Of a DNA stretch of 64,000 bases, positions 1,302 through 52,433 are shown piece by piece (within the stretch, counting starts at the first letter, position 1; each line of letters starts with the position of its first letter). The notes beneath the pieces were generated by a model that was not told the DNA's origin, ran no database searches, and saw nothing but the letters and a program-made list of their open reading frames with translations. Source of the DNA: an uncultured Desulfurococcaceae archaeon (GTDB lineage Archaea; Thermoproteota; Thermoprotei_A; Sulfolobales; NBVN01); the NCBI GenBank assembly GCA_964641155.1, contig CAZXJO010000001.1:149144-213143 (forward strand), read 5' to 3'. The translations under genes and the position numbers were made by a program.

Positions 1302-1470
1302 TTTAACGAGTTCCCAGACCCTAATGATATCACCTTGAAACCAGGTTTTGGTATATTGACTCTCAATAAACTTTATTATCAGATGCCTTAATAATTATCA
1401 CGGTGGTCGCATAGCTAAGCGTAAGAGGGGTGCACCGGTAGCAGCATTCATATATAATCCCAGAGTACTT

Positions 1471-2064
1471 ATGCGATTGTTAGACACTGTTAAGGACTTC
1501 GATATAGAGCTTTTCGTACCAAATGATGTTAAATCGCTTGCGAACTACCGCGACCTACTACTAGTGGATGATGAGGGCTTAGAGATACTGAAGAGATGCA
1601 TGGACGTGGGTCGGGTCAACTACTACTTAATAAGCGATGATGCTTCGATATATAGATTCATAGTTAGAGCCTTCGGAATTGAAGACGTTAAGGTGCTTCA
1701 GGTGGGGGTGGACGCGGGCAGGAGGTTGGCGTACGTTATACTCTCCGATAACCTACTCCTTAAAGCAGGTTACATCGCAAGGCTTGAAGATTTGATAGAG
1801 ATCATAAATAGGTTTAGGAAGTTCCTAACTCCCGCCAAGGTTGTTGTAAAGTTGGGTAGCTCCACCGGTAATGATGATAACAAACTCGACACTCTCATGA
1901 AGGGACTAGTTCGATCAGGGTTTGAAGTCATAGTAGCAGATGAAAGGAACTCATCCTCTAGACTCTGGAACCCATTAAGCGGCTATAAAACCAAGTTCAC
2001 AACCGACATGTATGCTGCATTGAACATAGTGTTCAGGGAGGGAGTTAAGGTTAGCATGACCTAA
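1471..2064 (+). CDS. hypothetical protein
   Basis: 197-aa ORF preceded by a CATATATAAT TATA-like box. I recognise no motif. Confidence 0.4.
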   Translation: MRLLDTVKDFDIELFVPNDVKSLANYRDLLLVDDEGLEILKRCMDVGRVNYYLISDDASIYRFIVRAFGIEDVKVLQVGVDAGRRLAYVILSDNLLLKAGYIARLEDLIEIINRFRKFLTPAKVVVKLGSSTGNDDNKLDTLMKGLVRSGFEVIVADERNSSSRLWNPLSGYKTKFTTDMYAALNIVFREGVKVSMT

Positions 2065-16767: not shown

Positions 16768-17049
16768 TTAACTTATGTCCGTTCTAGTGAGTAGCTCGGT
16801 CTCCACGCTTTCAACACCATTTAAACCCCTTATGATGCCTTCAACCTCCTCAGTACCACCTTCAACGTCCTCAGGCATTAGTAAGTAGAGTCTAAGGACG
16901 TGAAGCCCAAATGCCACATACACCTTCTCACTTTTAACTAGCTCGTATTTAGAAGGTAACACCTTCTTCAGGTCGGCAACTACACCATCTAAATCGACGT
17001 CTACGTCTTTAGGGTAAACCTTAAGAACAGCTAATATCTTAGCCGTAAT
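16768..17049 (-). CDS. translation elongation factor aEF-1 beta (start codon non-canonical or uncertain)
   Basis: In-frame translation ..AKILAVLKVYPKDVDVDLDGVVADLKKVLPSKYELVKSEKVYVAFGLHVLRLYLLMPEDVEGGTEEVEGIIRGLNGVESVETELLTR matches the aEF-1beta pattern (VlkVmP..vdld.., iAFGl.al.., egGtd..ee.l..i.GV). The track ORF (GTG 16962) removes the conserved N-terminal strand. Confidence 0.8.
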   Translation of the reverse strand: MTAKILAVLKVYPKDVDVDLDGVVADLKKVLPSKYELVKSEKVYVAFGLHVLRLYLLMPEDVEGGTEEVEGIIRGLNGVESVETELLTRTDIS

Positions 17050-17057
17050 GCATCACC

Positions 17058-17279
17058 TCAAGGTCCTTCGAAACCGCATTTCGGACAAACGTATTTGACG
17101 TTAAACTCCCTGCACATCCTGCAACGCCATATAGTCACTGACCCACAATTAGGGCATAGAAACTTAATACCCTTCTCCAAAGGTGATACTAACTTGCCGC
17201 AACTACTGCATATTGGCGGTGTCGAAGACTCCACTATCACAGGTCCCTTACTACTGGGATGTACTTCTGACTCCATCAT
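17058..17279 (-). CDS. Zn-ribbon protein (COG2888-type, usual upstream partner of aEF-1beta)
   Basis: 73 aa with four CxxC pairs (CSSCGK, CPNCGS, CRMCRE, CPKCGF). Sits directly upstream of aEF-1beta, which I recall as the usual archaeal arrangement. Confidence 0.7.
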   Translation of the reverse strand: MMESEVHPSSKGPVIVESSTPPICSSCGKLVSPLEKGIKFLCPNCGSVTIWRCRMCREFNVKYVCPKCGFEGP

Positions 17280-18449: not shown

Positions 18450-19136
18450 TCAACATATCTCAGCTTCCTCTATGATTAAGTACCCGACCCAGTGGCTTGG
18501 GTACCAAACCTTCCTACCGGACTTTATGCAGACCCTCCTCCCCCTGAAAAGGGGTGAGCTGGTGACGAACGTTTCGAATTCCCCGCCCTCGCCAACAGGG
18601 TTAATGCTGTACCTTCTACAAACGTCCATGAATTCCTCTAAGTTGCTAAGATTTATCTCACTACCCAACCATTTAATACCTAAGCCGTAAGCCTGCAATG
18701 CGGTGATAATGAATCCCACCGTCCTAACCTCCTCCTGTAATAACGTGTAGGGGTCGTAACTCCATAGGGGTGCTACATGTACCAGGCCTGCCTCCTCGCA
18801 TAATCTATCCACGATTGCTTTTTGGTATCTAGACCCTACAACACCGCTGATCACGTACCTGAACCCGTAATCCCGAAGTTCCTTAAACTTCTTACCCAGC
18901 TCAACTGCCTCCACGTCCTTAATGCCGCTACAGCTCATTAAATCGTAGTCAATGTCTAACAACGTACCGTGTAGGGTAGACCAGTTGACATTCACCGCAT
19001 GGAAGAGCCAAGAATCCTGCCTCAATGGACTGACCACGAGCAACTTCCCTACATCGTAACCTAGGTTTAGAGCCTTAATCAAAGCGTAGTGTGAGTCCTT
19101 CCCACCGCTGTAGAGGACTAACGCCTTCCCACCTAT
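18450..19136 (-). CDS. PP-loop ATPase, diphthine-ammonia ligase (Dph6/MJ0570)-like; start non-canonical or uncertain
   Basis: The track ORF starts at TTG 19082, but the same frame upstream encodes ..IGGKALVLYSGGKDSHYA. This contains the SGGKDS PP-loop that defines the family. The C-terminal EGGEFETFV motif is also present. Confidence 0.7.
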   Translation of the reverse strand: MGGKALVLYSGGKDSHYALIKALNLGYDVGKLLVVSPLRQDSWLFHAVNVNWSTLHGTLLDIDYDLMSCSGIKDVEAVELGKKFKELRDYGFRYVISGVVGSRYQKAIVDRLCEEAGLVHVAPLWSYDPYTLLQEEVRTVGFIITALQAYGLGIKWLGSEINLSNLEEFMDVCRRYSINPVGEGGEFETFVTSSPLFRGRRVCIKSGRKVWYPSHWVGYLIIEEAEIC

Positions 19137-51612: not shown

Positions 51613-51818
51613 TGTCTAAAGTTCTTTAAAAGTGCTTAGGTCATTGCGTGGGTTTCTCATCAGTTATCAGCGCTTATATACCTAATTCATCCCATGCTTT
51701 CCTAGTATATAAAATCCTTAAAAATGCATAATAATGTGAAAGGTGGTTACGTATCCAGTTCTACGGTGGGAGGAGGTACTGGGGCCTGAGGCTGAGGATC
51801 GAAGCTGTTGAGGCCCTA

Positions 51819-52433
51819 ATGGCTTATAAGGAAGTGTTCTCCTACGAAGAGCTTTCGAATAAGTTGGGCATACATGCATCAATGCTTTGTAGATATGCCC
51901 AAGGCCTGGCAGTACCCAACGAGCAAAACGTGAGGAAAGTTATTAACTCGCTGCTAAGTAAGGAATCCGTTAAGGAATACCTGTACAGGTACCTGAGTAA
52001 GAGCGGTTGGGACCTCCCCAAAGCACTCTCGAACCACAAAGTTTTGAACCTCTTAAGCCTCTACACATCAAATAAAATGCTGAGTAACTTGGCAGGCAGC
52101 GGGCTTAAGCTACTCATCTCCTTGCCCGGCGCGTCTGCACTGATCACCTCGTTGACAGCCATTAGGTTAGGCCTACCCATATACTTAATACATCGCACAG
52201 GTGTTGAGCCACCAACTGATTCTGTCAGCGGCTATGAGAGCGTCCCAGCACGTAGGGGGGACTACGTTGCAGCTATCGTTGACATGCTCACCTTGGAGAA
52301 CTTAAACGTTATTGTGGAATACCTTAACAGACATGATTTAGTCCTCAAGTGTTTGATTACCATAGTGCTCGTTGATAAAGCGTTAGAAAAAGCTGTGGGC
52401 AACCTCACACTCTTCGATTACTTAATCCCTTAA
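51819..52433 (+). CDS. HTH plus phosphoribosyltransferase-like regulator (tentative)
   Basis: N-terminal YEELSNKLGIHASMLCRYAQGLAVP HTH. The C-half has a PRTase-like layout (GDYVAAIVDMLT). The start may lie upstream. Confidence 0.45.
   Translation: MAYKEVFSYEELSNKLGIHASMLCRYAQGLAVPNEQNVRKVINSLLSKESVKEYLYRYLSKSGWDLPKALSNHKVLNLLSLYTSNKMLSNLAGSGLKLLISLPGASALITSLTAIRLGLPIYLIHRTGVEPPTDSVSGYESVPARRGDYVAAIVDMLTLENLNVIVEYLNRHDLVLKCLITIVLVDKALEKAVGNLTLFDYLIP

What the first reader, a model, noticed from the sequence alone, without database searches (positions are those of the whole stretch)
16960..17060. aEF-1beta has no canonical in-frame start codon upstream of its conserved N-terminus
Between the in-frame TGA (17055-17053) and the GTG at 16962 used by the ORF track, the frame reads C-I-T-A-K-I-L-A-V-L-K-V-Y-P-K-D-V-D-V-D-L-D-G-V-V-A-D-L-K-K. 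This contains no ATG, GTG or TTG. The segment is the conserved first beta-strand/helix of aEF-1beta (pattern ..VLKVxP..vdld..), so a start at 16962 would truncate the fold.

The upstream Zn-ribbon gene stops at TGA 17060-17058. The context is TGAGGTGATGCATTACG, with a strong GAGGTGAT Shine-Dalgarno-like motif just ahead of ATT (17049) and ACG (17046). The only ATG here (17053-17051) is out of frame and opens a 4-codon ORF. This points to AUU or ACG initiation, or to termination-reinitiation coupling.
Basis: partly seen in the sequence, partly recalled or inferred. Interest (0 to 1): 0.6.

Follow-up and report, generated by a model that had tools for sequence, protein, structure and literature searches.

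The report
aEF-1beta gene starting at ACG
In this uncultured hot-spring archaeon the elongation-factor subunit aEF-1beta has ACG exactly where 29 relatives have ATG, TTG or GTG. About 16 other genes of the genome have ACG, ATA, ATC or CTG at the same kind of position, so these codons very probably act as weak start codons that gene finders miss.

Summary
On the minus strand the aEF-1beta frame is open from TGA 17055-17053. It has no ATG, GTG or TTG before GTG 16962, and starting there would remove strand beta1 and most of helix alpha1.

In all 29 relatives fetched, the protein begins M-A-K-(I/V)-L at an ATG, TTG or GTG directly before GCT AAG. The window has ACG (17046-17044) in that column.

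ACG lies 7 nt after the GGTG core of a 9-nt Shine-Dalgarno match (TGAGGTGAT). Seven nt is the most common spacing of canonical starts in this genome. ATT (17049) lies at 4 nt, a spacing seen in 0 of 49 canonical starts.

The case is not isolated. Of 499 genes with same-genus orthologues, about 16 have ACG, ATA, ATC or CTG at the start column. These codons are often conserved across species: ribosomal protein S26e has ACG in 5 genomes, and GatD has ACG in 8 genomes of 3 genera.

Best reading (0.72): Shine-Dalgarno-directed near-cognate initiation at ACG, possibly helped by coupling to the upstream zinc-finger gene.

The scan has reported the same phenomenon in other archaeal lineages. I found no published account of ACG starts in Archaea.

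The parts
17058..17279 (-). Upstream gene for a small HVO_2753-like zinc-finger protein (73 aa). It starts at ATG 17279, and its TGA stop at 17060-17058 is the first triplet of the Shine-Dalgarno match.
   Evidence: ORF list. PF07754 E 1.8e-20. The same C-terminal ...CGFEGP-stop precedes aEF-1beta in most of the 30 relatives.
17052..17060 (-). Shine-Dalgarno match TGAGGTGAT (9 nt). Its GGTG core is at 17057-17054.
   Evidence: Sequence. GGTG lies 5-8 nt before 41 of the 49 orthologue-anchored canonical starts of this genome that have GGTG within 22 nt, with 7 nt the most common spacing. That it is complementary to the crenarchaeal 16S 3' end is my own knowledge: the 3' end of the 16S gene is not assembled here.
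17044..17046 (-). ACG, the proposed start codon of aEF-1beta. It is read as Met by the initiator tRNA, with a C:A mismatch at the middle position.
   Evidence: It occupies the column where 29 of 29 relatives have ATG (23), TTG (4) or GTG (2). It lies 7 nt after GGTG. ACG is conserved as the start column of S26e and GatD in this clade.
17047..17049 (-). ATT, an alternative near-cognate start one codon upstream. It is less likely than ACG.
   Evidence: It lies 4 nt after GGTG, a spacing seen in 0 of 49 canonical starts. The corresponding triplet is ACT in the closest relative (L003), and its position falls on or before the in-frame stop in several others. In GatD the triplet before the conserved ACG is ATT in genus g1 but AAT in G008 and G019.
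16768..17046 (-). aEF-1beta coding sequence as proposed: 92 codons plus the TAA stop, reading (M)AKILAVLKVYPKD...TRTDIS.
   Evidence: Translation. PF00736. PDB 2yy3 and 1gh8. It is the only copy in the genome. Changes specific to the G000 lineage are 8 synonymous to 2 non-synonymous.
16960..16962 (-). GTG, the first canonical start in the frame (the start used by the ORF track). It is most likely an internal Val codon.
   Evidence: A start here would delete residues matching Pfam profile positions 2 to about 24 and PDB residues 6-30, which are strand beta1 and most of helix alpha1. The upstream 28 codons are conserved at protein level, with synonymous differences between species.
17039..17053 (-). 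Out-of-frame mini-ORF ATG CAT TAC GGC TAA (M-H-Y-G-stop). Its ATG abuts the GGTG core and starts 4 nt after the upstream stop.
   Evidence: Sequence. An ATG-initiated mini-ORF in this frame was seen in L003 but not in L005 or L006, where the frame opens with ATT or ATA; the other 26 relatives were not checked. I treat it as a by-product or a minor reinitiation relay.
19134..19136 (-). A second case in the window: ATA as the start of the Dph6-like diphthamide synthase (CDS 19136..18450). It overlaps the upstream TAG stop and lies 7 nt after GGTG.
   Evidence: The start column is ATA in 4 of 5 same-genus genomes, and in G004 a TAA stop lies directly before it. PF01902 profile position 2 aligns to residue 4; the first canonical start would delete the SGGKDS loop. 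Spacing.
1411..1413 (+). A third case in the window: ATA as the start of a conserved 217-aa protein of unknown function (CDS 1411..2064), 5 nt after GGTG.
   Evidence: ATA is conserved in 4 same-genus genomes. In-frame stops lie 4 codons (G001) and 15 codons (G003) upstream of it, and the first canonical start is 20 codons downstream.
51753..51755 (+). A fourth case in the window: ATC as the start of a 226-aa protein (CDS 51753..52433), 7 nt after GGTG.
   Evidence: The start column is ATC in G000 and G001 and ATA in G002, where a TAG stop lies directly before it. The first canonical start is 22 codons downstream.

Best explanation
aEF-1beta is an intact, single-copy gene whose ancestral ATG start has become ACG (17046-17044) by one T-to-C transition. 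Translation most likely still starts there.

Proposed mechanism:
1. The 9-nt Shine-Dalgarno match TGAGGTGAT pairs with the 3' end of 16S rRNA. This places ACG in the P site, 7 nt after the GGTG core.
2. Met-tRNAi pairs with ACG at codon positions 1 and 3 and tolerates a C:A mismatch in the middle.
3. The product is Met-Ala-Lys-Ile-Leu..., made at a lower rate than from ATG.
4. Ribosomes ending the upstream zinc-finger gene stop inside the Shine-Dalgarno match, 11 nt before ACG, and may help by raising the local ribosome supply or by reinitiating.

Shown here: the orthologous position, the spacing, and conserved use of ACG, ATA, ATC and CTG at the start column of other genes in this clade.

Inferred, not shown: that Met-tRNAi decodes ACG, the reduced output, and any contribution of coupling.
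For: 1. In 29 of 29 relatives the column holding ACG is ATG (23), TTG (4) or GTG (2), directly before GCT/GGT/GGC AAG. The closest relative reads AAGGTGATGCACTATGGCTAAG against GAGGTGATGCATTACGGCTAAG in the window.
2. The gap from GGTG to ACG is 7 nt, the most common spacing among orthologue-anchored canonical starts; 41 of 49 fall at 5-8 nt.
3. ACG is conserved at the start column of ribosomal protein S26e in 5 genomes of 2 genera. One further genome has ATA and 24 others have ATG, TTG or GTG, while neighbouring synonymous sites vary.
4. ACG is conserved at the start column of GatD in 8 genomes of 3 genera.
5. About 16 of 499 testable genes of this genome carry ACG, ATA, ATC or CTG at the start column. 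In 11 of the 12 that have GGTG, it lies 5-8 nt upstream. In several genes an in-frame stop lies within 0-4 codons upstream of the non-canonical codon in at least one species.
6. Pfam domains begin at residues 2-6 of several proteins read from these codons.
7. AAG and AGG make up 8% of sense codons but never occupy a start column.
8. The gene is single-copy. It was found in 39 of 41 genomes searched, and the two misses are 56% and 77% complete. In the G000 lineage it shows 8 synonymous to 2 non-synonymous specific changes.
Against: - There is no direct evidence of translation: no reads, RNA, ribosome footprints or peptides.
- ACG occurs at this gene in only one metagenome-assembled genome, and read support could not be examined.
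- No strain-level relative was found to confirm the base independently.
- Published work describes archaeal start codons as AUG, GUG and UUG, and describes aIF1 as discriminating against non-canonical codons (PMC7531240, PMC6237735).
- aIF1 is present and starts at a normal ATG in this genome, so nothing seen here explains relaxed selection.
- The N-terminal part alone has too few lineage-specific changes (2 synonymous, 1 non-synonymous) to show selection since the mutation.
Confidence: 0.72

Rival explanations
1. Initiation is at ATT (17049-17047), one codon upstream, giving Met-Thr-Ala-Lys-Ile-Leu. Alternatively, ATT and ACG are both used.
For: - ATT is a recognised rare start in NCBI table 11, and in E. 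coli it gives about 0.3% of the ATG level (cited in PMC10666635).
- It lies in frame directly after the Shine-Dalgarno match.
- The closest relative has ACT here, so ATT may have arisen together with the loss of ATG.
- One extra N-terminal residue fits the solved structures, which have 3-5 residues before strand beta1.
Against: - The gap of 4 nt from GGTG was seen in 0 of 49 canonical starts.
- In GatD the conserved ACG is preceded by ATT in one genus and by AAT in another, so there ACG is the constant element.
- ATT is not at the orthologous start column.
Confidence: 0.08
2. The C at 17045 is a consensus or assembly error, or a minority allele of the population. The real gene starts with ATG like its relatives.
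For: - A single T-to-C difference separates ACG from the ancestral ATG.
- The genome is a metagenome-assembled genome of 11 contigs.
- Read support could not be checked, and no second assembly of the same species was found.
Against: - ACG, ATA, ATC and CTG occupy start columns of about 16 other genes in this genome.
- The same codons recur in independently assembled genomes from other studies: S26e in 5 genomes and GatD in 8. The codon class is therefore real in this clade.
- By my own estimate, a random substitution error hitting exactly this base is far less likely beforehand than one more ACG start.
Confidence: 0.08
3. The start codon has been lost and the gene is impaired. Either it is decaying, or a shortened protein is made from ATA 17037 (Met-Leu-Ala-Val-Leu-Lys...) or from GTG 16962.
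For: - No canonical start remains.
- ATA 17037 is in frame and lies 1 nt after the TAA of the mini-ORF.
- A protein starting there would lose only three residues that precede strand beta1.
Against: - The frame is fully intact over 92 codons.
- Lineage-specific changes are 8 synonymous to 2 non-synonymous.
- The gene is single-copy, and it was found in all 31 searched genomes that are at least 90% complete and at most 5% contaminated.
- ATA is 16 nt from GGTG, outside the 5-8 nt range that holds 41 of 49 canonical starts.
- A start at GTG 16962 would delete strand beta1 and most of helix alpha1.
Confidence: 0.07
4. Translation starts at the out-of-frame ATG 17053 after termination of the zinc-finger gene. 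It then reaches the aEF-1beta frame by a +1 shift at GGC TAA G, or by reinitiation backwards onto ACG (an 8-nt overlap).
For: - The ATG starts 4 nt after the upstream stop, and its mini-ORF stops at a TAA overlapping GCT AAG.
- In this same order the aRF1 gene does appear to use a mini-ORF plus a +1 shift at a stop codon.
- Overlaps of 8 nt are among the common coupled arrangements, and reinitiation tolerates gaps of about 13 nt in Haloferax volcanii (PMC10666635).
Against: - An ATG-initiated mini-ORF in this frame was seen only in G000 and G003 among the four loci I checked; in L005 and L006 the frame opens with ATT or ATA, and the other 26 relatives were not checked.
- The TAA is an automatic by-product of Ala-Lys coded as GCT AAG.
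- A glycine tRNA on GGC cannot re-pair on GCU.
- Unlike aRF1, the column here holds only single-base variants of ATG, which is the signature of a start codon and not of a shift site.
Confidence: 0.05

Closest known systems
Weak non-canonical bacterial start codons, such as the AUU starts of E. coli infC (IF3, autoregulated) and pcnB, and the alternative starts of NCBI table 11 (CTG, ATT, ATC, ATA)
   Same: A single-base variant of AUG sits behind a Shine-Dalgarno site, is decoded by the initiator tRNA and gives reduced output. It is conserved in particular genes, several of them translation factors. Gene finders miss it.
   Different: The codon here is ACG, which table 11 does not list. The machinery is archaeal (aIF1, aIF1A, aIF2), not IF1-3. 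No feedback loop has been shown. That infC is autoregulated through its AUU start is from my own knowledge.
Eukaryotic and viral near-cognate initiation at ACG or CUG (for example AAV VP2 and Sendai virus C'; review PMC5666671)
   Same: ACG is read by Met-tRNAi with a mismatch at the middle position. Fidelity is controlled by the eIF1/aIF1 family, which archaea share with eukaryotes (PMC6237735, PMC6412873).
   Different: In eukaryotes the codon is reached by scanning and helped by Kozak context. Here a Shine-Dalgarno duplex fixes the position, and the mRNA is polycistronic. The AAV and Sendai examples are from my own knowledge.
Near-cognate putative initiation sites seen by ribosome profiling in Haloferax volcanii (PMC7261190)
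   Same: This is an archaeon in which about 30% of newly detected initiation peaks lay on near-cognate codons.
   Different: Those sites were set aside as possible false positives, and none was tied to a conserved essential gene. The evidence here is comparative (orthologous start columns), not experimental.
ACG start codons of plant organelle genes, repaired to AUG by C-to-U RNA editing (for example ndhD and psbL; my own knowledge)
   Same: The genome has ACG exactly where relatives have ATG.
   Different: I know of no C-to-U editing of mRNA in Archaea. Editing would not explain the ATA, ATC and CTG starts found beside the ACG ones. It cannot be excluded without RNA data.
Translational coupling by termination-reinitiation in archaeal operons (PMC10666635)
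   Same: The upstream stop lies 11 nt before the proposed start and inside the Shine-Dalgarno match. In H. volcanii, 13-14 nt still allowed 40-60% of reinitiation.
   Different: Coupling explains ribosome supply, not codon choice. S26e appears to use ACG without an upstream gene close by.

Membership tests
aEF-1beta (EF1_GNE, PF00736) | Match to the guanine-nucleotide-exchange domain profile above the curated cut-off | tested here: met
   63.4 bits against a cut-off of 20.8; profile positions 2-87 of 88 on residues 8-90.
aEF-1beta (EF1_GNE, PF00736) | Sequence similarity to solved archaeal aEF-1beta structures over the whole fold, including strand beta1 | tested here: met
   2yy3 (E 1.9e-12, residues 6-90 on 6-90) and 1gh8 (E 5.5e-11, 6-86 on 4-83).
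aEF-1beta (EF1_GNE, PF00736) | Nucleotide-exchange activity on aEF-1alpha | not testable with these tools
   A biochemical assay is needed.
Non-canonical (near-cognate) start codon | No ATG, GTG or TTG between the upstream in-frame stop and the conserved N-terminus | tested here: met
Non-canonical (near-cognate) start codon | A single-base variant of ATG in the column where orthologues have their start codon | tested here: met
   ACG against ATG, TTG or GTG in 29 of 29 relatives.
Non-canonical (near-cognate) start codon | A ribosome-binding site at the spacing used by canonical starts of the same genome | tested here: met
   GGTG is 7 nt upstream of ACG, and 7 nt is the most common spacing among 49 canonical starts.
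Non-canonical (near-cognate) start codon | The same codon is kept as a start in other genes or species, which argues against a one-off lesion | tested here: met
   S26e has ACG in 5 genomes. GatD has ACG in 8 genomes. At aEF-1beta itself ACG is seen only in G000.
Non-canonical (near-cognate) start codon | Direct evidence of initiation: an N-terminal Met peptide, an initiating-ribosome footprint or a toeprint | not testable with these tools
prfB-like +1 programmed frameshift at a stop codon | A conserved shift heptamer with a stop codon in the zero frame, and a canonical start conserved in the mini-ORF frame | tested here: not met
   An ATG-initiated mini-ORF (ATG..GGC TAA G) was seen only in G000 and G003 among the four loci checked. 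The P-site codon GGC cannot re-pair in the +1 frame. By contrast, aRF1 of the same order meets this test.

The most novel reading that the evidence does not exclude
In this clade of uncultured hot-spring archaea, ACG, AUA, AUC and CUG are regular, selected start codons on about 3-4% of genes. They are concentrated on the translation apparatus: S26e, aEF-1beta, GatD, the diphthamide enzyme Dph6, Rio kinase, and the tRNA modifiers Trm61 and TtuA. That is 7 of the 16 curated cases by my own functional assignment, not tested against a background. They would form a regulon whose output reports the stringency of start-codon selection (aIF1 activity). This would be an archaeal, genome-wide counterpart of the bacterial infC AUU feedback.
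Probability: 0.15. Interest if true: 0.8.

Novelty: new variant of a known kind. Interest (0 to 1): 0.5.

Why it matters
Textbooks and current reviews give AUG, GUG and UUG as the archaeal start codons, and gene finders consider only these.

If ACG and the other near-cognate codons are genuine starts that are conserved across species, two things follow:
- A few percent of the proteins of such lineages are truncated or missed in databases. Here that includes aEF-1beta, S26e, GatD and Dph6.
- The eukaryote-like archaeal initiation machinery tolerates, or exploits, near-cognate codons when a strong Shine-Dalgarno duplex fixes the P site.

The second point can be tested with the existing Pyrococcus and Saccharolobus in-vitro systems. 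It bears on how start-codon fidelity evolved between archaea and eukaryotes.

For this gene alone the practical result is a corrected gene model: CDS 17046..16768, 92 codons.

Tried and rejected
- **Independent assemblies.** An exact look-up of the zinc-finger protein found nothing. Scans of metagenome and genome contigs found only other species, at most 86% identical.
- **Anti-Shine-Dalgarno sequence.** Only the 5' third of the 16S gene is assembled, at a contig end. I used the spacing of GGTG before canonical starts instead.
- **First genome-wide screen.** Using all stop-to-stop ORFs, it was swamped by shadow ORFs. I replaced it with longest-ORF selection and reciprocal best hits.
- **Automatic calling of the near-cognate codon.** It failed because conserved Shine-Dalgarno regions were counted as homology. 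The final list of about 16 genes is curated by hand, so the count is approximate.
- **aRF1.** I first counted it as an ATA start. I rejected that because its 'start' column varies among ATA, GTA, GGA and GCA while the heptamer A-TTT-AGC is conserved. It reads as a +1 frameshift site.
- **Missing or odd aIF1 as a cause.** aIF1 is present in all 41 genomes and starts at ATG in this one.
- **tRNA scan.** The set is incomplete (36 genes, and introns probably hide others), and I did not identify the initiator tRNA.
- **Selection on the N-terminal 28 codons in the G000 lineage.** Only 3 lineage-specific changes, too few to decide.
- **Literature.** Searches found no report of ACG starts in Archaea, but the library is incomplete.
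Full report
**1. The observation**

On the minus strand the window reads ...GGACCT TGA GG TGA TGC ATT ACG GCT AAG ATA TTA GCT GTT CTT AAG GTT TAC CCT....

- The upstream 73-codon gene ends at TGA 17060-17058. It is a small HVO_2753-like zinc-finger protein (PF07754, E 1.8e-20).
- The aEF-1beta frame opens after TGA 17055-17053 and reads CITAKILAVLKVYPKDVDVDLDGVVADLKK before the first canonical start, GTG 16962.
- The only ATG (17053) is out of frame and gives M-H-Y-G-stop.
- The protein is aEF-1beta: PF00736 with profile positions 2-87 on residues 8-90, and the solved structures 2yy3 and 1gh8 align from residue 6.
- A start at 16962 would therefore delete strand beta1 and most of helix alpha1.
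- The gene is the only copy in the genome.

**2. What the relatives show**

The window lies in a metagenome-assembled genome of 1.39 Mb in 11 contigs, 91% complete. Record titles of its congeners call them uncultured 'Sulfolobales archaeon' or 'Desulfurococcaceae archaeon'.

I fetched aEF-1beta loci from 29 relatives in the same genus, family and order and read each junction.

- All 29 have the zinc-finger stop, a GGTG-type Shine-Dalgarno motif and then a canonical start: ATG in 23, TTG in 4 and GTG in 2.
- In most of them the start directly precedes GCT/GGT/GGC AAG, giving M-A/G-K-(I/V)-L.
- The closest relative reads AAGGTGATGCACTATGGCTAAG. The window reads GAGGTGATGCATTACGGCTAAG.
- ACG (17046-17044) therefore occupies the ancestral start column, in frame and one transition away from ATG.

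**3. ACG or ATT**

I anchored 151 canonical starts of this genome on orthologues. Of these, 49 have GGTG within 22 nt. The gap from GGTG to the start is 5-8 nt in 41 of the 49, most often 7 nt, and never 4 nt.

| Candidate | Position | Gap from GGTG |
|---|---|---|
| ACG | 17046 | 7 nt |
| ATT | 17049 | 4 nt |
| ATA (next in frame) | 17037 | 16 nt |

GatD gives an independent test. Its start column is ACG in eight genomes of three genera. The preceding triplet is ATT in the window's genus but AAT in G008 and G019, so ACG is the constant element. I therefore place the start at ACG and keep ATT as a minor rival.

**4. The case is one of many**

A note from the same scan pointed to a second start-less gene in this window. 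I therefore compared all long ORFs of the genome with four large contigs of same-genus genomes.

Of 499 genes with reciprocal orthologues:
- 386 are compatible with their first canonical start.
- 35 show protein-level homology extending at least 8 codons upstream of it, without overlapping another ORF.
- After removing shadow ORFs and conserved leaders by hand, about 16 remain.

The start-column codons in the curated genes are:

| Gene | Start-column codon(s) |
|---|---|
| Ribosomal protein S26e | ACG |
| GatD | ACG |
| Endonuclease V | ACG |
| Two small conserved proteins | ACG |
| Dph6 | ATA |
| Rio kinase | ATA |
| TtuA | ATA |
| Two unknown proteins | ATA |
| One protein | ATC in G000 and G001, ATA in G002 |
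| HIT protein | CTG, CTG, ACG, ATG in four species |
| Phosphoribosyltransferase | CTG in three species, TTG in one |
| Winged-helix regulator | CTG |
| Trm61 | CTG |

Supporting points:
- In 11 of the 12 genes that have GGTG, it lies 5-8 nt upstream of the codon.
- In several genes an in-frame stop lies within 0-4 codons upstream of the non-canonical codon in at least one species.
- Pfam domains begin at residue 2-6 for S26e, GatD_N and Dph6, and at residues 11-13 for the TtuA LIM domain and the phosphoribosyltransferase domain. The first canonical start would remove the PP-loop of Dph6, the zinc finger of TtuA and half of GatD_N.
- ACG, ATA, ATT, ATC and CTG together are 9.6% of sense codons.
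- AAG and AGG are also single-base variants of ATG, but are known as the poorest initiators. They make up 8.0% of sense codons and never occupy a start column.

**5. Conservation**

- For S26e the start column is ACG in four genomes of the genus and in one genome of another genus, and ATA in the fifth congener. It is ATG, TTG or GTG in 24 other relatives. The neighbouring synonymous sites vary.
- For GatD, ACG holds in eight genomes.
- The congeners come from different studies and assemblies. The codon class therefore cannot be an assembly artefact, and it is kept by selection.
- At aEF-1beta itself ACG is confined to this one genome. Here the evidence is the clade's precedent plus the intact gene: changes specific to this lineage are 8 synonymous to 2 non-synonymous.

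**6. Mechanism**

The best-supported reading is Shine-Dalgarno-directed near-cognate initiation:
1. The 9-nt duplex fixes ACG in the P site.
2. Met-tRNAi pairs at codon positions 1 and 3.
3. The product starts Met-Ala-Lys.

These steps are inferred. The literature says that aIF1 destabilises complexes on non-AUG codons (PMC6237735) and that archaeal starts are AUG, GUG and UUG (PMC7531240). In Haloferax volcanii ribosome profiling, about 30% of novel initiation peaks lay on near-cognate codons but were set aside (PMC7261190).

aIF1 is present in all 41 genomes searched, and in this genome its gene starts at ATG. I therefore have no molecular explanation for the tolerance.

The upstream stop codon lies inside the Shine-Dalgarno match, 11 nt before ACG. 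In H. volcanii, reinitiation still works at 40-60% with 13-14 nt between genes (PMC10666635). Coupling may therefore add to the ribosome supply. It does not explain the codon, and S26e appears to use ACG without a close upstream gene.

**7. Rivals**

Given about 16 similar genes, I give it 0.08.
- Initiation at ATT: 0.08.
- A crippled or shortened gene: 0.07.
- A route through the out-of-frame ATG, by +1 shift or backward reinitiation: 0.05. An ATG-initiated mini-ORF in this frame was seen only in G000 and G003 among the four loci I checked. Its TAA is a by-product of GCT AAG, and GGC cannot re-pair in the +1 frame.

**8. A correction made on the way**

I first counted aRF1 as an ATA start. 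Across the order its 'start' column varies among ATA, GTA, GGA and GCA, while the heptamer (A/G)TT TAG (C/T) is conserved. A canonical GTG or ATG lies 3-4 codons upstream in the other frame.

Five genomes of family f13 read ATG AGT CTT TGA C, which contains the bacterial prfB heptamer CTT TGA C. One of them has a contig of 2,225,959 bp, the size I remember for Sulfolobus acidocaldarius.

This is a +1 frameshift site, not a start codon. The scan had already reported it on other genomes. The contrast is useful: a shift site leaves the preceding triplet free to vary, whereas the aEF-1beta, S26e and GatD columns hold only single-base variants of ATG.

**9. Novelty and verdict**

Near-cognate initiation is a known kind of event in bacteria and eukaryotes. 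ACG is not among the starts of table 11, and I found no paper describing ACG starts in Archaea.

Earlier notes of this scan describe the same pattern in a Micrarchaeon, Bathyarchaeia, an Asgard archaeon and the related genus Zestosphaera. I did not test those claims.

I rate the finding a new variant of a known kind, with interest 0.5. Direct evidence is lacking.

Noticed in passing
G000:C5:~66,675-66,720 (minus strand; outside the window); loci L131-L160 and L163-L182: aRF1 has no in-frame start. In 27 of the 30 relatives first fetched, a conserved heptamer (A/G)TT TAG (C/T) ends a mini-ORF, which has a canonical GTG or ATG start in 24 of them, usually 3-4 codons long. The aRF1 body continues in the +1 frame. 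Five genomes of family f13 read ATG AGT CTT TGA C, which contains the bacterial prfB shift heptamer CTT TGA C. This reads as an autoregulatory +1 frameshift. The scan found it before on other genomes (e1-2532509, e1-2617389). PMC3521657 states that such recoding is absent from archaeal release factors.
   Followed up: partly
window 19134-19136 (minus strand), CDS 19136..18450: The Dph6-like diphthamide synthase starts at ATA, which overlaps the upstream TAG stop (ATAG) and lies 7 nt after GGTG. The start column is ATA in 4 of 5 same-genus genomes and GTA in the fifth. The first canonical start would delete the SGGKDS PP-loop.
   Followed up: yes
window 1411-1413 (+) and 51753-51755 (+): Two further genes in the window lack a canonical start. 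A 217-aa protein of unknown function starts at a conserved ATA. A 226-aa protein starts at ATC, with ATA in one congener directly after a TAG stop.
   Followed up: partly
G000:C1:147,568 (+), about 1.6 kb before the window starts; loci L101-L130: Ribosomal protein S26e starts at ACG in 5 genomes of two genera and at ATA in one. It starts at ATG, TTG or GTG in 24 other relatives. The Shine-Dalgarno motif GAGAGGTG is conserved, with GGTG 7 nt upstream.
   Followed up: yes
G000:C1:270,736 (+), outside the window; loci L183-L190: GatD starts at ACG in 8 genomes of three genera (GGT GGT ATT/AAT ACG). The first ATG lies 24 codons downstream and would remove half of the GatD N-terminal domain.
   Followed up: yes
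window 17058-17279 with 16768-17046; loci L003-L031: The gene pair 'HVO_2753-like zinc finger, then aEF-1beta' is kept in most of the 30 genomes of the order that I examined. The zinc-finger stop codon usually lies within or next to the Shine-Dalgarno motif of aEF-1beta, which suggests that the two are expressed together.
   Followed up: partly
the curated list of about 16 non-canonical starts, genome-wide: Seven of the 16 are translation-related: S26e, aEF-1beta, GatD, Dph6, Rio kinase, Trm61 and TtuA. This hints at enrichment, but it was not tested against a background set.
   Followed up: no
G000:C7:1-650: Only the first ~590 model positions of the 16S rRNA gene are assembled (two pieces), at a contig end. 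The anti-Shine-Dalgarno tail of this organism therefore cannot be read from this assembly.
   Followed up: yes
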